Assembly: GCA_965222065.1 (NCBI GenBank)
Contig: OZ244933.1
Span: forward strand, 1,447,680 to 1,511,679
Origin: Pseudomonadales bacterium
GTDB taxonomy: Bacteria > Pseudomonadota > Gammaproteobacteria > Pseudomonadales > GM7GCV1
Length of the DNA: 64,000 nucleotides
Direction: 5' to 3'
The notes under the pieces were generated by a model. The model was not told the origin of the DNA and did not search any database. It saw nothing but the letters and a program-made list of their open reading frames with translations. Below, piece by piece: positions 1 to 9,011 of this stretch (its first letter is position 1; every line of letters starts with the position of its first letter). A program made the position numbers and the translations under genes.

Positions 1-1320
<1,320 letters not shown>

Positions 1321-1369
1321 CAGATTTGAGGCATGCCTTTAACTAAAGGTGTGCCTCTCAGGAGGCAAT

Positions 1370-2251
1370 ATGCATTCTCATAAGCATTCCATAAGCTCGT
1401 CCCGGATAGGTTGGGCATTTTTTTTAAACTTGATATTTACCATTATTGAATTTATAGGCGGCTGGCTTACCAATAGTGTGTCGATTATGGCAGATGCGGT
1501 ACACGATCTCGGAGACACACTGTCCATCGGCAGTTCATGGATTTTGGATCGCGCTGGTAATAAACAGGCAGATTCTGAATATACCTATGGTTACCGCAGA
1601 CTTAGCCTTCTGGGAGCACTAATTAATGGAATAGTGCTGATTGCCGGATCAACATGGGTATTAATGGAAGCCGTTCCAAGATTATTTGATCCTGTACTTC
1701 CACATGTTGATGGCATGATTGGATTGGCAATACTCGGGGCATCAATAAACGGAATTGCCGCGTACAAGCTTAGTCATGGAAACACGTTAAATGAGAAGGT
1801 CTTGAACTGGCACCTTCTTGAAGATGTCCTTGGCTGGGTGGCCGTTCTCGTCGTAGCTATCACGATGAAATTCGTAGAGTGGCCTGTGCTTGACCCTGTC
1901 TTATCAATTGGTTTCACCTTATTCATTCTGGTCAATGTGACACGCAATCTTCGAGCAACCGCAAGAATGTTTTTTCAGGCCTCCCCAGACTCTAAATTGA
2001 TCCAGGAAATTCGTGAAAAATTACTAGGTGTAGACGATATAGAGGCGATACATCATTTGCATTTATGGTCACTGGATGGAGAGCGCCATGTTCTTACTAC
2101 CCACGCAACAGTGAGTAAATCAGTAAATGAAGTAAACTATGTTCAGCTTAAAGAAGCGCTACGCTCTGCTTTGGAACATTTCAATATCGAACACACCACT
2201 ATTGAAATCGAATCACCGGAAGAGATGTGTCGTGATGAGCCAATGGATTAG
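1370..2251 (+). CDS. czcD: Cation diffusion facilitator (CDF) family Co/Zn/Cd efflux transporter
   Basis: His-rich N-terminus (MHSHKHS), CDF signature region (SVSIMADAVHDLGD) and six predicted TM segments. AGGAGG sits 6 nt before the ATG at 1370, which is in frame with the listed ORF beginning at 1349. Confidence 0.8.
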   Translation: MHSHKHSISSSRIGWAFFLNLIFTIIEFIGGWLTNSVSIMADAVHDLGDTLSIGSSWILDRAGNKQADSEYTYGYRRLSLLGALINGIVLIAGSTWVLMEAVPRLFDPVLPHVDGMIGLAILGASINGIAAYKLSHGNTLNEKVLNWHLLEDVLGWVAVLVVAITMKFVEWPVLDPVLSIGFTLFILVNVTRNLRATARMFFQASPDSKLIQEIREKLLGVDDIEAIHHLHLWSLDGERHVLTTHATVSKSVNEVNYVQLKEALRSALEHFNIEHTTIEIESPEEMCRDEPMD

Positions 2252-2444
2252 CTACAACCAAATAACTAGCCAAAGCTAAAATTTATTTTAGCGGGGGCAT
2301 ATTTGGGGGCATAAATATAAATAGAATTTTAAATATCTATTTATATCAATAGGTTGAATAGCCTATTTGAGTGACCCCGCCCCATAAACTGTTATAATTG
2401 AATTTGTTCCTCCAACTCACTACCCTGTAGGGAGAAGGGAAAGA

Positions 2445-2777
2445 TCAAATTTTAGGATCCCAAGATTTAGGCTTACGCACCATATTGGCAAAACGGATTT
2501 TTAGCTCAGCTTCCGATAGATCGAAACCGCGCCGTTTTTCATCATCGGTAAAAGATTCCTTCCTCTTATCTGAAAATTTGGGGGTCACTGAAATTTCTTT
2601 CTTGGAAGTCATGGAAGAGTTTCTGATTTCATATTGAATACATAATACTCCTTCCTTGCCCCCCTTCAAGGAAGCCCCTGGCTCTCCCATACATGCAATC
2701 AAAGGCACCCTAGACACAAAAAAACCCGCAGATATCTCGGCGGGGCTTTTGGGCTTGCAGGATAGGTGGTCCATCAA
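2445..2777 (-). CDS. Hypothetical small protein (110 aa), downstream of the recombinase pair. Doubtful.
   Basis: ORF only. Its 5' end overlaps the predicted intrinsic terminator of the upstream operon (2718..2750). No recognisable motif. Confidence 0.2.
   Translation of the reverse strand: MMDHLSCKPKSPAEISAGFFVSRVPLIACMGEPGASLKGGKEGVLCIQYEIRNSSMTSKKEISVTPKFSDKRKESFTDDEKRRGFDLSEAELKIRFANMVRKPKSWDPKI
2718..2750 (-). terminator. Rho-independent terminator for the recombinase operon
   Basis: Read on the minus strand: GC-rich hairpin (CCCGC/GCGGG arms with a palindromic AGATATCT loop region) immediately followed by a run of 7 T (plus-strand A-run 2718-2724). Lies ~130 bp downstream of the stop at 2880. 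Confidence 0.6.
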
Positions 2778-2879: not shown

Positions 2880-5800
2880 CTACTTTGCAACTTCATACAA
2901 AGGGGAAAGGCCGACGATCAAAAGCATCCACACGGCAAACCGCAACCCAGGTGAACCAGAACGCCTTTTTTTATCAATCAGCCGAACATTCAACTGACCA
3001 TGTACATTTCTGGAATATTTCTTTGTCTCTTGTGCCACCTCAATATCACTTTTGATGTAAGCGCTTAAATTTTTACGCCAGTATTTCTGTTGTTGCTGTT
3101 CAGTTTTTTTATCACCTAAAAACAGCCTCACTTTGATGTCCCAGCGATTAAAGCCAAGGTCAAAGAGTAATTTCAAAAACTCTTTCGCCTGAAAGGCATG
3201 GGAAAACTCAAACCACTCATTTCGTTTATATACCCTATCTATATAGAGAGAAATAAACGCGTCTCTTTTATCAGGATCTACCCGACCGAGAATGGCTGCA
3301 ACCCTGCGAGCATAGCGCTGGTCATCTTTTTTTCCTGGCATTCTTGGGACACATTTATAACCCCCATAGGTGTGATTAAAATTCTCTTGCCGAAATACCC
3401 TCGAGAACTTGGGGTCGGATACCAACTGCTCGCAGCGAGCCAAGTATTTCGTCAAACTGGCTTCATCAACGCCAGTTAATTGGTAAATTAGATCCGGGTG
3501 AGAATTCAAACCAACTCTCATATTCATGGCGCTCCAGACATCAAAAATATCAGGCTCTGCCGGAGTAATCCCAAGGTCCATTCCCTGCCGGTATAAATGC
3601 TCCATGGTCACCGGCCTGAGCTTACGCACCACCGGAAAACTTTGTGCCAAAGTGCGCCCCAAAAGCTCCGTACCTGACTTTTTTCGGTGATAGGCAGTCG
3701 AGGTTGAAATCAAACCCATTTTGGCAAGATCAACAGGGTCATACAGCTTCGACTGATAAATAAGCGCTGCCAAGAACCAATCCAGGCAATGGATGTAGTG
3801 CTCTAAAGACACATCGGGGCCAGAGTGGCCTATCATTTGGGAGACCAGATAATAATGCCGGCGGGTTGGCCCTGCGTTCTCATAGATCAATTGAGCGAAC
3901 TGCTTTGACTCCGACAAAAACTTTTTCGTCTCAGGAAGATGATCAAAGAATCTTAGACTGACGTCGTGATCCGCAATCATAAGCCTGGCTATCATCCAGG
4001 TGGCGGCAGAATGCCTGAGATGATGAAACCGAATATTGACCCGCTGAGTGACTTCACGCATGACTCGATGTAGCGGCTTAATAATTTCATCTTCTCTAAA
4101 ATCCTGCTTCCCAAATGCCGGCAGAGCAAACAGGTAGCCGTCATCGTCCTCACTTGATGAATTTTTTAGCTCCTGCTCCCTACTGTTTATCCAGTCACGC
4201 AACCCATCAAGTTCAGACTTAGGCAGCAGGGCATAAAGCGGTACATTGCGCTGGGAGTTACCCGTTTTAAGCGTACGAATTTTATTTTCACGAACGATGG
4301 CAAAAAGGTCACGCCCCCCGATGAGATCCTCAACTCGGAGGAACAAGACTTCTTTTCTGCGCATACCCGTTCGAAAACCAAGGATAAATACCAGCTTCAT
4401 GATTTTGATCAGTTCTTCACTTTGATTTTTAGCGAGCATCGTCTCCAAAGTTCCTAAAATAGCCTGATACTCATCCTCACAGATAATTTCGGCATCCACT
4501 GGTACAAGTTCATTTTGAAATTCAGACAACTCCTTTAAGCCGTAATCGCTCGTCATTCCTTTGCTTACCAAAAACTGCAAAAAGCTGTGCAAGAATCTAA
4601 GGTAATGGTTTCGAGTCATTCGACTTTTGGCTATTTCGGTCACACTACGAAAAATGGCCATCCAGTCCTCTGGTGAAAAATCATCACAATTCTGGTCAGA
4701 AACAAACTCCACTAATGCCGGGGCAACGGCATAGAGCATTTGCTGAAGGCTATTTGGCCTGGCATTGGCGCCAAGCCCATGCTTTCGATCAATAAGAAAT
4801 ATCTGCCATTGGGCAAGCAGTCGAACAATATGTGGCCGATCATAGGGCGCTTCTTTTTTAGATTTTGCGCCCGGGATTTTTGTACTTAGCCAATTTTCCA
4901 GCCTGGCTCGCAACTCCGCCTTTTCAGGTAATTTCGAGTAGCACCCATAAAGACTTTTTAGCGCAAGTCCCCCAAGATTAACGCCCTCTTCTTCATCAAA
5001 ATCCTCATATGAGTTTTTTAATTTCTCATCCAACGCCTCTTCCTGCACAGACTCTTCTTGCTGTACACCAAGCAAATATCGCCAGCATGGCTCCGTCAAA
5101 GAATGATTAATCGTTTTGCGGCTTGCGTAGTATGAGAACATTGAAGGAATTCGCAGATCCATCTCTGCTAACTGAGCAGCAACAAGCGCCGTAAAGTTTT
5201 TAAGCGATTTATCCAGCTCTACACCACGTGCAGTAATACTCGCCTTCATCAACCCAAATAGAACACGGGTAAGTGATGCGGAGTCAAAAACCCTGGTTAA
5301 ACAACCATCAATCTCTTTACCAAAAAATCCATTTTTTGCCTCTGAAAATTTCTGGATACTGGCCAATGTCATTGGATCAATAAGTATGCGTCTAAATTCT
5401 TGATCAGGTTTCCCTCTCCATGACAAATCCGTTGATATCCATACCACCGAATCATTGGCATAGATCTCATCGGTGATAATCGCACGCAATAGGGCTCGCA
5501 GCCCCCCAGAGCTGCAAACCCCCGAATAACAAAGCGCATTCAACAGCACGTCACCAACAATTTGCTTGGCGGTCGTTTGCCCAGGAGGCTCAATCATTAG
5601 CTTACGCACCCTGAAAAGGCTGTTCACTTTTGGCATATCCAGAGGAGTGCCATGCGGCGAAGGCTGAGGAAAATGCATGAGATATCCAGGATCAGACGCA
5701 AAACGCCAAAGATCCTTATCCTCCCCCTGCCGAACAACAAAAGTCAGAATGTTTATTAGCTCAACACTATCCTCTGTATCCTTTGCCGCATGCTTTATAA

Positions 5801-6026
5801 GGTCTTTAATCAAATTCCAGTCAGGATTTTTCACCAACCTGTTGGAAGGATTTTTGTCGGTCAGCTTTCTGAGCACATTGTTACTTTTAAAGTCTGCAGC
5901 CAGAACAATTGCCTTTAATCGCTCAAACCGCTCTCTGTGATGCTCTCGAAGTCCGGTATTCGGCCAATCCCAGATAGGGTTTAACTCCTTTTTGGGCTTA
6001 TTCTGATCCTCGGAGACATCCATCAT
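2880..6026 (-). CDS. Giant tyrosine recombinase (~1048 aa, or 1061 aa from the alternative start at 6065). A phage-integrase-type catalytic core is embedded between long N- and C-terminal extensions.
   Basis: The translation contains the canonical tyrosine-recombinase motif series. Box I Arg: LGFRTGMRRKEVLFLRVEDL (R565). Beta-hairpin Lys: ENKIRTLKTGNSQRNVPL. Box II: FHHLRHSAATWMIARL (H681/R684). Terminal motif: MIGHSGPDVSLEHYIH (H747, Y757). A core-binding-like region precedes them (RNHYLRFLHSFLQFLVSKG). The ATG at 6026 overlaps the upstream gene's TGA stop (ATGA) with AGGA 7 nt upstream. An alternative in-frame start lies at 6065. Confidence 0.85.
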   Translation of the reverse strand: MMDVSEDQNKPKKELNPIWDWPNTGLREHHRERFERLKAIVLAADFKSNNVLRKLTDKNPSNRLVKNPDWNLIKDLIKHAAKDTEDSVELINILTFVVRQGEDKDLWRFASDPGYLMHFPQPSPHGTPLDMPKVNSLFRVRKLMIEPPGQTTAKQIVGDVLLNALCYSGVCSSGGLRALLRAIITDEIYANDSVVWISTDLSWRGKPDQEFRRILIDPMTLASIQKFSEAKNGFFGKEIDGCLTRVFDSASLTRVLFGLMKASITARGVELDKSLKNFTALVAAQLAEMDLRIPSMFSYYASRKTINHSLTEPCWRYLLGVQQEESVQEEALDEKLKNSYEDFDEEEGVNLGGLALKSLYGCYSKLPEKAELRARLENWLSTKIPGAKSKKEAPYDRPHIVRLLAQWQIFLIDRKHGLGANARPNSLQQMLYAVAPALVEFVSDQNCDDFSPEDWMAIFRSVTEIAKSRMTRNHYLRFLHSFLQFLVSKGMTSDYGLKELSEFQNELVPVDAEIICEDEYQAILGTLETMLAKNQSEELIKIMKLVFILGFRTGMRRKEVLFLRVEDLIGGRDLFAIVRENKIRTLKTGNSQRNVPLYALLPKSELDGLRDWINSREQELKNSSSEDDDGYLFALPAFGKQDFREDEIIKPLHRVMREVTQRVNIRFHHLRHSAATWMIARLMIADHDVSLRFFDHLPETKKFLSESKQFAQLIYENAGPTRRHYYLVSQMIGHSGPDVSLEHYIHCLDWFLAALIYQSKLYDPVDLAKMGLISTSTAYHRKKSGTELLGRTLAQSFPVVRKLRPVTMEHLYRQGMDLGITPAEPDIFDVWSAMNMRVGLNSHPDLIYQLTGVDEASLTKYLARCEQLVSDPKFSRVFRQENFNHTYGGYKCVPRMPGKKDDQRYARRVAAILGRVDPDKRDAFISLYIDRVYKRNEWFEFSHAFQAKEFLKLLFDLGFNRWDIKVRLFLGDKKTEQQQQKYWRKNLSAYIKSDIEVAQETKKYSRNVHGQLNVRLIDKKRRSGSPGLRFAVWMLLIVGLSPLYEVAK

Positions 6027-8698
6027 CTTGTCCTGAATGGGCAATCTATAGGCCTCCACCCACACTCAAGGGAAAGTTCCTCTATTGCCTGAGTGATCGT
6101 TCTTCGATAGTCAAGAATAGGGAAACTCGAGTACTGCCCCCAAGGCTGCTGCCCCATTGACCAGTGCGACATGAATGCATTCACATATTCTGCTGGAACG
6201 CCTTTCATGCGTAACTCTGTTCTTAAAAATCGACGATTCGAATTGATTGCAAAATCGAAAAAGCCGGCGACTTGCTGCTCGGTCCGACTGGGAAAACTGG
6301 GGATTAAAACCAGTCCTATATTCGGGTCTCTATCCAAATAAAAGGGCTGACCGCTTTGCAGAATCCTCCTCTCTGCCCTGGTCATCCGCAACTCATCTAA
6401 AAAGCCAATCTCCTTAATCCTTGATCGATGAATATCCCAGTTCTCAAGTTGCCTCTTGAGCCCTTCATTAAGAGGGATATGTCGGGTATTAAAAAAGGAT
6501 TTTGGTTTCTTAACTATAACCTCTACTTGTCCATCAATACCGCTACCCTTTACCAACCCATCCTTGTCCGACAGAGCAAAAAAATCTCCTTGCCCATCCA
6601 TCCACTCGGCTCGCGGCAGTGGTTGATTCAACGCTCTGTAAGACGTTGTATAGGCGCTATACAAAACTGTGTAAGCAACAAAGTAATTATGCCGCTCAAT
6701 CCTATCTCTGATCTTTAAAGACTGATCCGGAGCTAATTCCGTGCTTTTAATTTTCTCCTGCAACGTCAAAACCATTTGACTAACAGCCTGAACTGTTGGG
6801 CACTGCTTTACCCCAACGGCCCCGGACATATTGTTTATCTTTACCTTTTTAACTTTTTTAGCCTTTACAGGCACAGGCCAATTCTCGTAGACACGCTCTA
6901 TCACTTTCTGAACAGTTGTTTCATAGGCACTTGCCAGATAGGCGACATCAGGACAATAGTAATGAAGCTGGTTGAATGCGTTAGGTAGTTTTCTACCGCA
7001 TATTAACGCCGCATCTGCAGAGTCACTGCCCTGCTTCAGGAGTTCATTTACCAAAAACCGACTTAGGTACGTACTTGATTTGGATATGAGTTTTCCATGA
7101 TTTTCTTTTATATCTTCCAAAGTATCTTCATAGCACTGTTTGTAGTCTTGCCTGTTCCAGCTTCCAAAAGGGTGCTGCATTTCAATTCGCTCACAGGTCT
7201 TCCTTAATTTCCGAAAATATTCTGAGAACCCAAAATAGTCAGGAAGGCGCATATATCCCGCCGCAGTACGCTCTTGATTTGGCAAAGCTGTTCGGTCCGC
7301 ATGGGAATCAGGTATCTGAACTGGAAAGCGCCAATAACTCACACCACCTTTTCTCAACAGCTGGATTACACCTTCCGATATGGAATCTTTTTGAGATTCA
7401 ACTATGCTCATGGCCTCTTCAGAAGTCCTCCCTAACCAAACCTGCATCATGGCAATCACTGCAAATTGAGCTGGCTTTAAAGAACGCTCTAAATTATCAA
7501 CTTCCTCTTCAGAAACATTATCTATGCTAGACCGCTGCTCTAAGGAATCAATTATCCGTTCTGTCTGTTTGATTGATTCTCTGAAACGGCGCCCTAAGGA
7601 CTCCATTAACAGAGCAATCTCCGGAATGATGAATTGATTAAAGGTAAACGGGAGCTCCTGATTGGCCATGAGCAAGTGCTTAAGTTGATATTTTGAACGC
7701 CACCCGCCTGCACGTTGCTCTTTTGAACTTGGGGTATCCAGTCCGACTTTATCAGCTTGTGTTTCGTAAGGGCTAACATCATCCGTGTCCGCCACTTCAA
7801 CTTCTTCCTCTTCTATCTCTACAGTAAAGACCTCATCATCCTCTTGGTCTATCTGCATGTCCCGTAAACGTGGCCCGCTGCCTACCAGGTTAAATGAATA
7901 TATCTGCCGCGTGACTCCCAAACCAAAATTATTTTTCTTTCCTCCCCCTCCACCTCCGGTGCGTTTACTACGCAATCCCCGCATTCTTAAAAGCGAATTT
8001 AAAATCTTTGCAAGATTATCCACATTTAACCTTTTAAATTGGACTAACTGCCATACGGTTAAAGTATTAAGATTCGTTATTTTATGAATGAAATCCGTCG
8101 GCGAATCCGACAAGATTTTAAGCTCTATACCTCGCCCGCCAGATGTATCGCTAAGAGTTCTCATTCCTCGATACATTTTACCCAAGAAATTTTTTTCTTT
8201 TACCGTCTTGTTTAGGCCATCCCAATCTTTGTAGGCACAAAGAAGATGCATTTGCAGAAAACGGAAGTTTTCGACAGCCCATTCCCAATCACCTACGTCG
8301 TGCATCACACATAACACAGTGTATAAAGGGTGCTCCCCCTGATAGTTATATGAGGGTATTTGATCTTCTCCCTTTTCGGTTCTTCCCTTAAAAGCTTGAG
8401 ACCACCAGTCTGGATCTATCCCTTCTGAATTTTTTTGTGACGTATCAGGGTTTGGGATACATGCACAAGCCTTGGCAACAGGGATAAATCTGGAAAGCCA
8501 CTTATATTCAGGCCAAGAATTCTTTTTAATCAGTTCCAGGCACTGTAAAAAGTTTTCTGAGACATCCACGATGGCCCCCAGCTTTGGAGGGGCATCGATA
8601 ATTTTCAAATACTCATGATAAATAGATTCGCTGACATCCTCCTTTATAAGCCCATATAGTTTTGGAATATCATCAGGAGTTTTTTTTGGCCTTGGCAT
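6023..8698 (-). CDS. Giant protein (891 aa) with a C-terminal tyrosine-recombinase-like domain and an internal Gly6/acidic low-complexity linker. First gene of the two-gene operon.
   Basis: C-terminal ~200 aa carry integrase-like motifs. Box I-like: TTSYRALNQPLPRAEWMD. Lys hairpin: VIVKKPKSFFNTRHIPLNEGLKRQLENW. Terminal motif: FMSHWSMGQQPWGQYSSF (H845...Y856, the canonical H-to-Y spacing of 11). Box II is degenerate. Contains RTGGGGGGKK and EDDEVFTVEIEEEEVEVADTDD linker segments. Confidence 0.75.
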   Translation of the reverse strand: MPRPKKTPDDIPKLYGLIKEDVSESIYHEYLKIIDAPPKLGAIVDVSENFLQCLELIKKNSWPEYKWLSRFIPVAKACACIPNPDTSQKNSEGIDPDWWSQAFKGRTEKGEDQIPSYNYQGEHPLYTVLCVMHDVGDWEWAVENFRFLQMHLLCAYKDWDGLNKTVKEKNFLGKMYRGMRTLSDTSGGRGIELKILSDSPTDFIHKITNLNTLTVWQLVQFKRLNVDNLAKILNSLLRMRGLRSKRTGGGGGGKKNNFGLGVTRQIYSFNLVGSGPRLRDMQIDQEDDEVFTVEIEEEEVEVADTDDVSPYETQADKVGLDTPSSKEQRAGGWRSKYQLKHLLMANQELPFTFNQFIIPEIALLMESLGRRFRESIKQTERIIDSLEQRSSIDNVSEEEVDNLERSLKPAQFAVIAMMQVWLGRTSEEAMSIVESQKDSISEGVIQLLRKGGVSYWRFPVQIPDSHADRTALPNQERTAAGYMRLPDYFGFSEYFRKLRKTCERIEMQHPFGSWNRQDYKQCYEDTLEDIKENHGKLISKSSTYLSRFLVNELLKQGSDSADAALICGRKLPNAFNQLHYYCPDVAYLASAYETTVQKVIERVYENWPVPVKAKKVKKVKINNMSGAVGVKQCPTVQAVSQMVLTLQEKIKSTELAPDQSLKIRDRIERHNYFVAYTVLYSAYTTSYRALNQPLPRAEWMDGQGDFFALSDKDGLVKGSGIDGQVEVIVKKPKSFFNTRHIPLNEGLKRQLENWDIHRSRIKEIGFLDELRMTRAERRILQSGQPFYLDRDPNIGLVLIPSFPSRTEQQVAGFFDFAINSNRRFLRTELRMKGVPAEYVNAFMSHWSMGQQPWGQYSSFPILDYRRTITQAIEELSLECGWRPIDCPFRTR

Positions 8699-9011
8699 GA
8701 AAAAATTTCCCTATATTTGCTTCAAGAACATCATTAACGATAGAATAATATCGAATTATAATAATATATTATTTTCCAATTGAGCCCAAAATTTTATATC
8801 TTAGATTGTTTTAAATGATTTAAATATTTTTAAAATAATCTGAAAAATCCCTTTATTTATAGGTTTTAAAGGCGATTTATATCAATTAATATAAATTAAA
8901 ATTAAACATGGTGTAATGTTCATAATGGGGGTCGGTGGTTCAAGAATTCCCTTTTAGATTCAACAGGATATAGTTCCTTCCCCCACTTTTTAAATCCTGT
9001 ACAAGCTATAG

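What the first reader, a model, noticed from the sequence alone, without database searches (positions are those of the whole stretch)
3756..4748. Complete R-K-HxxR-H-Y catalytic motif set embedded mid-protein in the 1061-aa ORF
The translation shows four motifs in order. Box I is LGFRTGMRRKEVLFLRVEDL. The beta-hairpin lysine is in NKIRTLKTGNSQRNVPL. Box II is FHHLRHSAATWMIARL. The terminal motif is MIGHSGPDVSLEHYIH, whose H-to-Y spacing of 10 is canonical. A core-binding-like helix region (RNHYLRFLHSFLQFLVSKG) lies just upstream. The enzyme module occupies residues ~440-760, sandwiched between large uncharacterised domains, so it is probably an active recombinase with added regulatory or targeting domains.
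Basis: seen in the sequence. Interest (0 to 1): 0.6.

Follow-up and report, generated by a model that had tools for sequence, protein, structure and literature searches.

The report
Giant two-protein tyrosine recombinase module
The motifs are real: this ~1,050-residue protein has a complete tyrosine-recombinase active site and always works beside an ~890-residue partner, forming an unnamed two-protein DNA-cutting-and-rejoining system found on genomic islands in many bacterial phyla.

Summary
Observation confirmed. The minus-strand ORF 2880..6065 (true start probably 6026, 1048 aa) has a core-binding domain and a catalytic domain. R569, K600, H681-x-x-R684, H747 and Y757 (ORF numbering) are invariant or nearly so in more than 100 homologues at about 22% identity. 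They align onto the canonical residues of ordinary integrases, and a confident AlphaFold model matches only tyrosine recombinases and type IB topoisomerases.

A ~40-residue family-specific insertion splits box II from the H..Y motif. The gene is translationally coupled (ATGA overlap) to an 891-aa upstream gene, 'A'. A precedes B, on the same strand and usually overlapping, in all but one of the 67 genome loci where the DNA upstream of B could be read, and the two are fused in two proteins. A has a degenerate recombinase-like C-terminal domain that keeps R, K, R and H but not the nucleophilic tyrosine.

The pair lies in low-GC, island-type DNA. Two otherwise identical genomes switch alleles inside B at box II and then carry unrelated DNA downstream.

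Most likely it is the recombination module of an island. It is organised like GInt or SE elements but is a member of neither. Its function is inferred, not shown. Novelty: new variant of a known kind.

The parts
2880..6026 (-). Gene B: 1048-aa giant tyrosine recombinase (the finding's ORF, with the start corrected from 6065 to 6026)
   Evidence: ORF. Homologues P0001 and P0002 start at M14. The start forms an ATGA overlap with the stop of gene A. Pfam PF00589 E=1.5e-11. AF2 pLDDT 85.9.
4512..4757 (-). Core-binding (SAM-like) helical domain of B, residues about 424-505 (1048 numbering)
3747..4478 (-). Catalytic domain of B, residues about 517-760
4359..4361 (-). Box I Arg codon (R556; R569 in ORF numbering)
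   Evidence: Invariant in 116 of 116 homologues. Aligned to the integrase box I Arg. Codon checked.
4266..4268 (-). Beta-hairpin Lys codon (K587; K600 in ORF numbering)
   Evidence: Invariant. Lies between strands 575-578 and 593-595 of the model. Aligned to the integrase Lys.
4014..4025 (-). Box II H-x-x-R (H668..R671; H681..R684 in ORF numbering)
   Evidence: H in 111 of 116 homologues, R in 116 of 116. Aligned to HQLRHSFAT of XerA 4a8e and to the integrase profile.
3861..3980 (-). Family-specific insertion of about 40 residues (two or three helices) between box II and the GH..Y motif
   Evidence: The Pfam match ends at profile position 142-145 of 172. Helices 698-715 in the model. Removing these columns restores a full-length profile alignment.
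3795..3827 (-). GH...Y: His (H734; H747 in ORF numbering) and nucleophilic Tyr (Y744; Y757 in ORF numbering)
   Evidence: Both invariant in 116 of 116 homologues. Aligned to the GH and Tyr of conventional integrases.
6023..8698 (-). Gene A: 891-aa obligate partner with no database annotation
   Evidence: No Pfam or NCBIfam family. A homologue lies on the same strand upstream of B in all 67 genome loci where that DNA could be read, directly adjacent and usually overlapping in 66. Fused to B in P0046 and P0099.
6083..6736 (-). C-terminal recombinase-like domain of A: R688, K712, R739, N819-x-x-R822 and H845 are conserved, but the Tyr position (856) is variable
   Evidence: Invariant columns. Position 856 is Y in 26, F in 14, H in 5 and other residues in 7 of 52 sequences. 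Ten of 52 members hit PF00589. The best PDB profile hit is XerA, E=0.007. hhalign to integrases gives E 7e-4 with collinear motifs.
4024..4046 (-). Interval containing a homologous-recombination crossover between two B alleles
   Evidence: The window and L003 are identical from 18697 down to 4024. L002 and L003 are identical from 4046 down into the right flank, apart from one differing base at 3825 and three in the small-ORF region (2473, 2472, 2457).
2445..2690 (-). Small ORF (81 aa as called in related contigs) downstream of B. Conserved only in the closest relatives, so membership of the module is doubtful.
   Evidence: Gene calls in L002 and L003. No family hit. Not recovered as a conserved neighbour.
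2293..2346 (-). Right edge of the conserved module: an 11-10-11 palindrome (2315-2346), then ATGCCCCCAAATATGCCCCC (2293-2312). Beyond this the window and its relatives are unrelated.
   Evidence: Palindrome I12. The ATGCCCCC motif is unique in the window. The homology break is seen.
8699..9011 (-). AT-rich intergenic region upstream of A, holding a possible promoter or left end. It contains ATTGATATAAAT, which is repeated near the right edge.
   Evidence: Sequence. Repeat D8, which is no better than chance matches in other loci.

Best explanation
Gene B (window 2880-6026, minus strand) encodes the catalytic subunit of a conserved two-protein tyrosine-recombinase machine. The second subunit is the product of the overlapping upstream gene A (6023-8698).

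B binds DNA through a core-binding domain plus a catalytic domain. It cuts by attack of Tyr757 (ORF numbering), activated by R569, K600, H681, R684 and H747, forming a 3'-phosphotyrosyl intermediate that is then religated to a partner strand.

A carries a degenerate recombinase-like domain that keeps the phosphate-activating R, K, R and H but not the tyrosine. It most likely acts as a non-cleaving DNA-binding, synapsis or regulatory partner, as GinC does in GInt elements and Tfp does in SE elements.

The pair is carried on horizontally transferred islands. Its most probable job is site-specific recombination that moves or rearranges the island DNA attached to it. In this window it sits at the left end of a low-GC segment. 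The DNA downstream of it (czc metal-efflux genes here, AraC/TonB-receptor genes in a sister genome) behaves as exchangeable cargo.

Shown: the fold, the active-site conservation, the A-B coupling and fusion, the island context and the allele/cargo swap.
Inferred: catalytic activity, the A-B complex, the role of A, and mobility as the biological purpose.
For: Active site and fold.

Obligate pairing:
- A is upstream of B on the same strand in all 67 genome loci whose upstream DNA could be read, and directly adjacent, usually with a 4-nt overlap, in 66.
- Natural A-B fusions exist: P0046 (1969 aa) and P0099 (1755 aa).

A's recombinase-like domain without a conserved Tyr.

Foreign, island-type DNA:
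- GC is 43-45% across the module, against 49-55% in most of the rest of the window.
- An Int/Xis-like/HTH module lies nearby in about 28 loci, with tRNA-Arg(CCG) next to it in 9.
- A 13.7-kb island delimited by a 15-nt repeat of the tRNA end has the operon at one terminus.
- The 5.6 kb of the island held for Stutzerimonas stutzeri TS44, which begins inside B, is 99.75% identical to its Pseudomonas ulcerans counterpart, and the identity ends about 125 nt beyond the tRNA.

Module-plus-variable-cargo pattern, as described for GInts (PMC5385486):
- Homology between related loci starts about 40 nt upstream of A and stops about 20-150 nt after B.
- The window and L003 are identical over 14.6 kb up to box II of B, then 3-8% diverged to position 2293, then unrelated.
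- In L168, host-type genes lie upstream, and AbiE plus a methylase lie immediately downstream.
Against: - No attachment sites, terminal repeats or empty site could be identified.
- In at least 25 loci the pair sits inside an island that already has its own conventional integrase and whose end is set by that integrase and the tRNA. There the pair is not needed to explain mobility.
- Neighbours rich in toxin-antitoxin, Abi, restriction-modification and reverse-transcriptase genes fit a cargo or defence role equally well.
- The allele/cargo swap can be explained by ordinary homologous recombination.
- A's fold rests on weak sequence evidence only, because its AlphaFold model failed (pLDDT 39.6).
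- No biochemical data exist.
Confidence: 0.5

Rival explanations
1. The A-B pair is island cargo with a non-mobility role. One option is an anti-phage or anti-plasmid system that traps or breaks invading DNA. Another is a maintenance function such as multimer resolution of the excised island.
For: - It is embedded among AbiEii/AbiEi, a DNA methylase, HsdM, DUF6088, HigB, an M78 peptidase and a reverse transcriptase.
- It lies next to the integrase end of islands, a typical cargo hot spot.
- The conserved block is little more than the two ORFs, like a shuffled cassette.
Against: - No PADLOC defence family matches either protein; the only hit is a marginal one for B (E 8e-4).
- I know of no defence system that uses a full R-K-H-R-H-Y recombinase as its effector (own knowledge; the literature searches found none).
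- Resolution systems normally need only a ~300-aa recombinase.
Confidence: 0.25
2. B is a recombinase-derived relaxase or nickase, like the MOB_M proteins TcpM, MobK and MpsA. It would nick an origin of transfer so that the island can hitch a ride on a conjugative element, with A as an accessory factor.
For: - MOB_M relaxases are related to tyrosine recombinases, are common in chromosomal islands and are often mis-annotated as integrases (bioRxiv 10.64898/2026.01.13.699239).
- The pair lies next to int/xis-type modules of small islands that otherwise lack an obvious relaxase.
Against: - Eleven loci already have a TraI_2/HD relaxase-like gene beside the pair.
- B is about three times larger than I recall those relaxases being (their sizes were not checked here) and keeps the complete ligation-competent residue set and a core-binding domain.
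- The window copy has no integrase or transfer genes nearby.
- The MOB_M profile was not available for a test.
Confidence: 0.1
3. An ordinary phage-type integrase whose long ORF is an artefact (a fused or decaying gene), or an inactive relic.
For: Only the central ~250 residues match any known family.
Against: - 346 cluster representatives match at E<=1e-30, and most of the best 150 are 1000-1100 aa and match over much or all of their length.
- The N- and C-terminal regions are confidently folded.
- The catalytic residues are invariant.
- XerC/XerD equivalog scores are 36 bits against cut-offs of about 330.
Confidence: 0.03

Closest known systems
GInt elements (ginABCD; Bardaji et al. 2017, PMC5385486)
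   Same: - A multi-protein tyrosine-recombinase operon sits at the 5' end of an island.
- Variable cargo begins right after the last gene.
- One subunit (GinC) has the recombinase fold but an incomplete catalytic set.
- The end is AT-rich and poorly conserved.
   Different: - GInts have four genes (three integrase-like proteins plus the small GinD). Here there are two very large proteins (about 890 and 1050 aa), sometimes fused.
- No GinD-like gene is conserved.
- No att repeats were found.
- The host range is broader (also Acidobacteriota, Desulfuromonadales and a Saccharibacteria MAG).
Strand-biased circularizing integrative elements (SE: intA-tfp-intB-srap; PMC9345347, PMC10214605)
   Same: - IntB is an unusually long tyrosine recombinase with a long N-terminal region.
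- Tfp is a recombinase-fold protein without the catalytic motif.
- The genes are translationally coupled.
- The cargo can be RND efflux pumps.
   Different: - SEs need four genes, including a normal-sized IntA and the small Srap, and are restricted to Gammaproteobacteria.
- Tfp lacks the whole RHRY set, whereas A keeps R, K, R and H.
- tblastn of B against plasmids found no SE-type hits at E<=1e-10.
Tn554 family (tnpA, tnpB, tnpC)
   Same: Two adjacent tyrosine-recombinase genes, one of them enlarged (TnpB, 630 aa), followed by a small gene. There are no inverted repeats.
   Different: - Both TnpA and TnpB carry the full RHRY motif.
- The proteins are much smaller and the hosts are Firmicutes.
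- The small downstream ORF here is not conserved in the family.
XerC/XerD, XerH, XerA, lambda Int, Cre, IntI (simple tyrosine recombinases)
   Same: The same two-domain fold and the same catalytic residues in the same order.
   Different: - Those proteins are 300-400 aa. B adds about 420 N-terminal residues, about 280 C-terminal residues and a 40-residue insertion in the catalytic domain.
- B scores 36 bits against Xer equivalog cut-offs of about 330.
MOB_M relaxases (TcpM, MobK, MpsA)
   Same: Recombinase-derived DNA-processing enzymes on chromosomal islands that are often annotated as integrases.
   Different: They are single and, as far as I recall, much smaller proteins that act as nickases. 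Relatedness to B was not tested.

Membership tests
Tyrosine recombinase / phage integrase superfamily (PF00589) | Sequence match to the catalytic-domain profile above the curated threshold | tested here: met
   44.8 bits against a cut-off of 27.1, E=1.5e-11.
Tyrosine recombinase / phage integrase superfamily (PF00589) | Catalytic residues R, K, H-x-x-R, H/W and Y at homologous positions | tested here: met
   Invariant in the family and aligned to the canonical residues of conventional integrases and of XerA.
Tyrosine recombinase / phage integrase superfamily (PF00589) | Two-domain fold (core-binding plus catalytic) | tested here: met
Tyrosine recombinase / phage integrase superfamily (PF00589) | Covalent 3'-phosphotyrosyl cleavage and strand exchange | not testable with these tools
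   Needs biochemistry.
XerC/XerD chromosome-dimer resolvases | Score above the NCBIfam equivalog cut-off; ~300-aa protein | tested here: not met
   35.9 and 34.5 bits against cut-offs of 335 and 330. The protein is 1048 aa.
GInt (ginABCD) | Operon of three consecutive integrase-like genes plus a small fourth gene | tested here: not met
   Only two genes are conserved. A small upstream gene occurs in about 24 loci, but no third integrase-like gene does.
GInt (ginABCD) | Flanking 10-11 nt imperfect direct repeats (attL/attR) and a circular intermediate | tested here: inconclusive
   The candidate repeats D8 and D20 are no better than chance. Circular intermediates are not testable here.
SE (intA-tfp-intB-srap) | Four-gene core with a tfp-srap synteny block | tested here: not met
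   No intA-sized or srap-like conserved genes. Direct sequence comparison with Tfp, Srap and IntB was not possible.
Tn554 family | Two recombinases, both with the full RHRY motif, plus TnpC | tested here: not met
   The tyrosine position of A is Y in only 26 of 52 members. The small ORF is not conserved.
MOB_M relaxases | Match to the MOB_M profile; nicking at an oriT | not tested
   Neither the profile nor the sequences were available. Known only.
Known anti-phage defence systems (PADLOC 2023) | Match to a defence-system protein model | tested here: not met
   Only a marginal CARF_TM hit for B (E 8e-4) and nothing for A.

The most novel reading that the evidence does not exclude
A and B define a previously undescribed class of giant, two-subunit (sometimes single-chain) tyrosine recombinases that mobilise or remodel genomic islands on their own. 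A is a pseudo-recombinase whose conserved R-K-R-H pocket is completed in trans by the tyrosine of B (a Flp-like shared active site). The unexplained N- and C-terminal domains would provide target choice.
Probability: 0.25. Interest if true: 0.8.

Novelty: new variant of a known kind. Interest (0 to 1): 0.6.

Why it matters
Tyrosine recombinases are the main engines of island, prophage and integron mobility. Multi-subunit versions (GInt, SE, Tn554) are poorly understood.

This pair is a compact, widely distributed system. There are 346 sequence clusters at E<=1e-30, and at least 143 hits in one-genome-per-species bacterial and archaeal genomes, spread across several phyla. It is annotated only as 'site-specific integrase' plus 'hypothetical protein'.

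If it drives mobility, it marks a class of islands that current tools do not recognise. Here that island carries metal-efflux genes. It would also offer a natural heteromeric recombinase with one catalytic and one degenerate subunit for mechanistic and engineering work. If instead it is a defence or transfer function, it would be a new use of the recombinase fold.

Tried and rejected
- **Empty site and element ends.** None of these searches gave an unoccupied site.
  - Exact-protein look-ups of CzcD (two alternative starts), B (1047 aa) and the RraA-like neighbour returned nothing or the same place.
  - A metagenome scan with the RraA-like protein gave only loci with different contexts.
- **Terminal repeats.** Direct and inverted repeats flanking A-B in 52 loci were no better than noise, except REP-like palindromes in L020 and L021.
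- **Structure of A.** A profile search for usable homologues returned only two proteins. The 4-sequence model was useless (pLDDT 39.6).
- **A versus B by hhalign.** Not significant. Paralogy of A and B is therefore unproven.
- **Pfam and PDB with the insertion deleted by hand from the single sequence.** The alignment still did not reach the H..Y motif. The profile-level deletion did reach it.
- **afdb50 fold search.** Unavailable.
- **Phage origin.** Rejected: only 2 hits in 2.9 million viral contigs.
- **A second copy, or another B-like gene, in the window.** None.
- **Literature searches for a prior description.** Found only GInt, SE, Tn554 and MOB_M as relatives in kind.
Full report
**1. 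The observation**

The minus-strand ORF 2880..6065 (1061 aa) is present, and its translation contains the four quoted motifs in order. The finding's coordinates 3756-4748 are ORF residues 440-770.

The ORF starts at a GTG. Both close homologues begin at M14, and gene callers on related contigs start at M14 or M15. M14 (window 6026) forms an ATGA overlap with the stop codon of the upstream 891-aa ORF. The protein is therefore most likely 1048 aa. I give ORF numbering, with 1048 numbering in brackets.

**2. Is it a tyrosine-recombinase active site?**

Sequence matches:
- Pfam PF00589 matches residues 530-693 (E=1.5e-11, above the curated cut-off), but only to profile positions 5-142 of 172.
- PHROG integrase families match at 2e-19 and 6e-18.
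- NCBIfam XerC/XerD models score only about 35 bits against cut-offs of about 330.
- The single sequence finds nothing in the PDB.

Family conservation:
- A profile search of 1.84 billion cluster representatives found 346 proteins at E<=1e-30. Most of the best 150 are 1000-1100 aa, and many match over most of their length.
- In 116 such homologues at about 20-25% identity, R569, E572, K600, R606, R684, H685, H747 and Y757 are invariant, and H681 is present in 111 of 116.
- An 80-sequence alignment gives the same invariant set.

Alignment to known recombinases:
- The family profile aligns box I (RRxE to LRVSE) and box II (HHLRHSfA to HQLRHSFAT) to archaeal XerA 4a8e.
- Sequence alignments stop at box II because the family has a ~40-residue insertion before the GH..Y motif.
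- Deleting the insertion from the single sequence did not help.
- Deleting those columns from the family alignment gave a profile-profile match to 28 conventional integrases with Prob 94.6%, E 6.5e-8 over 164 columns. This places R569, K600, H681/R684, H747 and Y757 on the canonical residues, with the same H-to-Y spacing of 10.

Structure:
- AlphaFold2 on the 80-sequence alignment gave pLDDT 85.9 and pTM 0.82.
- The top 50 Foldseek hits are tyrosine recombinases, the recombinase-fold regulator YopR and poxvirus topoisomerase IB.
- The N-terminal ~420 and C-terminal ~280 residues are confidently folded but match nothing specific.

**3. The partner gene**

The upstream ORF A (6023-8698, 891 aa) has no Pfam, NCBIfam, PHROG or PADLOC match.

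A scan of one genome per species returned 143 B relatives, of which 80 loci were kept. Of the 67 where the DNA upstream of B was present, all have a homologue of A upstream of B on the same strand. In 66 it is directly adjacent and usually overlaps B's start; in L058 it lies 4.9 kb away. Two proteins, P0046 (1969 aa) and P0099 (1755 aa), are natural A-B fusions.

A's C-terminal ~220 residues carry collinear motifs: TG-x-R (R688), a Lys (K712), R739, N819-x-x-R822 and GH (H845). All are invariant or nearly so in 52 sequences.

Evidence that this is a recombinase-like domain:
- Ten of 52 members individually hit PF00589 (best E 2.4e-4).
- The A profile's best PDB hit is XerA, aligning N-x-x-R...GH to H-x-x-R...GH (E 0.007).
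- hhalign against the conventional integrases gives E 7e-4 with all motifs in register.

The position equivalent to the nucleophilic tyrosine is Y in only 26 of 52 sequences (F in 14, H in 5, other residues in 7), in an ungapped region. A is therefore best read as a recombinase-fold protein without a conserved nucleophile.

This rests on weak sequence evidence. The AlphaFold model of A failed (pLDDT 39.6), and A-versus-B profile comparison was not significant.

**4. Context in the window**

The module lies in DNA of 43-45% GC, against 49-55% for most of the rest of the window.

Contig L003 is identical to the window from 18697 down to 4024. It is 3-8% different from 4023 to 2293 and unrelated beyond that. 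The window has czcD and czcA there; L003 has AraC, a TonB-dependent receptor and further genes.

Contig L002 shows the reverse pattern. It is 3-10% different from L003 to the left of 4047 and, apart from four scattered bases, identical to it to the right.

So a crossover between two B alleles lies within 4024-4046, just 5' of the box II His codon. The 3' third of B travels with whatever lies downstream.

The homology break at 2293 follows an 11-10-11 palindrome (2315-2346) and the sequence ATGCCCCCAAATATGCCCCC. I could not show that these are recombination sites.

**5. Context elsewhere**

Hosts include Gamma- and Betaproteobacteria, Desulfuromonadales, Acidobacteriota, a Nitrospirae MAG, a Saccharibacteria MAG and a Flavobacteriaceae MAG. 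Only two of 2.9 million viral contigs carry the pair.

Association with conventional integration modules:
- About 28 loci have a conventional integration module within a few kb. It consists of a Cro/CI-type HTH, a 70-aa protein, a ~400-aa integrase with an arm-binding domain and a 103-aa protein, sometimes with a TraI_2/HD protein.
- tRNA-Arg(CCG) lies beside this module in nine loci.
- In L013 a 15-nt repeat of the tRNA 3' end delimits a 13.7-kb island. The (small gene)-A-B operon sits at one terminus and the integrase module at the other.
- The 5.6 kb held for Stutzerimonas stutzeri TS44, which begins inside B, is 99.75% identical to the Pseudomonas ulcerans locus, and the identity ends about 125 nt beyond the tRNA.

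Other neighbours include AbiEii/AbiEi and a methylase directly after B, as well as HsdM, DUF6088, HigB, an M78 peptidase and a reverse transcriptase.

Between related loci, homology often shrinks to the two ORFs, starting about 40 nt upstream of A and ending about 20-150 nt after B. No general flanking repeats were found, and no empty site was recovered.

**6. Interpretation**

The chemistry is that of a tyrosine recombinase. The conserved coupling and the fusions argue for an A-B complex.

The organisation is a conserved recombinase operon with sharp boundaries, variable DNA beginning just after the last gene, and one subunit with a degenerate active site. This matches what is described for GInt and SE elements (PMC5385486; PMC10214605; PMC9345347). 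The allele/cargo swap in the window fits that picture. I therefore favour a recombination module that moves or remodels island DNA (confidence about 0.5).

The main counter-evidence is that many copies sit inside islands that already have their own integrase, among defence-type genes. A cargo role in defence or maintenance therefore remains a serious rival (0.25). A MOB_M-like relaxase role is also possible (0.1).

**7. Comparison and novelty**

[quoted passage not shown] It is not a member of Xer, GInt, SE or Tn554 as those are defined (gene number, protein sizes and catalytic motifs were tested and not met).

Database names for family members are only 'hypothetical protein' or 'site-specific integrase'. 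Literature searches found no description of this two-protein architecture.

I rate it a new variant of a known kind, with interest 0.6.

Noticed in passing
window 4024-4046 (inside the finding's interval): A crossover between two alleles of gene B. The window and contig L003 are identical to the left. Contigs L002 and L003 are identical, bar four scattered bases, to the right. The window's right part is 3-8% diverged and leads into different downstream genes.
   Followed up: yes
window 52-2251: The C-terminal part of a CzcA-type RND metal-efflux pump and a CzcD-type cation-diffusion facilitator (named from their sequence by eye, not scanned) lie directly beyond the module's right edge, in ~45% GC DNA. 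In the sister genome this position holds AraC, a TonB-dependent receptor, glyoxalase and FAD-lactate dehydrogenase genes.
   Followed up: partly
window 2293-2346 and 8864-8886: An 11-10-11 palindrome (ATATAAATAGA..TCTATTTATAT) and a tandem ATGCCCCC motif sit at the exact point where homology with related contigs ends. ATTGATATAAAT recurs upstream of gene A. These look like a core-type site, but statistically they are no better than chance matches in other loci.
   Followed up: partly
P0046 (1969 aa) and P0099 (1755 aa), from the representative search: Natural single-chain fusions of the A and B proteins, in the same order as the genes.
   Followed up: yes
L013 6509-6523 and 20184-20198: A 15-nt direct repeat that includes the 3' end of tRNA-Arg(CCG) delimits a 13.7-kb island. 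The island contains a small gene, A, B, an ankyrin-repeat protein, an integrase module and HigB/M78. A 1343-aa reverse-transcriptase protein lies just outside it.
   Followed up: partly
L004-L083 (about 28 loci; e.g. L029 2340-11938, L027 7125-15130, L021 7035-16354): The same integration module (HTH_26, 70-aa protein, integrase, 103-aa protein, with or without TraI_2/HD) occurs next to A-B in three different relative arrangements. These include apparent circular permutation and inversion relative to tRNA-Arg.
   Followed up: partly
about 24 loci, e.g. L005 6356-7111, L036 2287-2826, L020 4915-5391: A small unannotated gene (about 160-250 aa, three sequence clusters) directly precedes gene A and often overlaps its start. 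It may be a third subunit. It is absent from the window.
   Followed up: no
L168 13187-16424: An AbiEii/AbiEi toxin-antitoxin pair and a DNA methylase start one base after the stop codon of B in a Tara Oceans contig.
   Followed up: no
gene A, window about 7400-7700 (residues ~330-440): A weak profile match (E 0.1) of the middle of A to the region of B just before and including box I. This hints at a second, more degenerate recombinase-like segment in A. It is the only part of the A model with moderate confidence.
   Followed up: no
L085 (Sphingobium yanoikuyae plasmid p-A-Sy, NZ_CP053022.1, 91911-95677): A distant relative of B (947 aa, annotated 'site-specific integrase') is preceded by only a 306-aa hypothetical protein and an unannotated 1.3-kb gap. 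This may be a decayed A gene.
   Followed up: no
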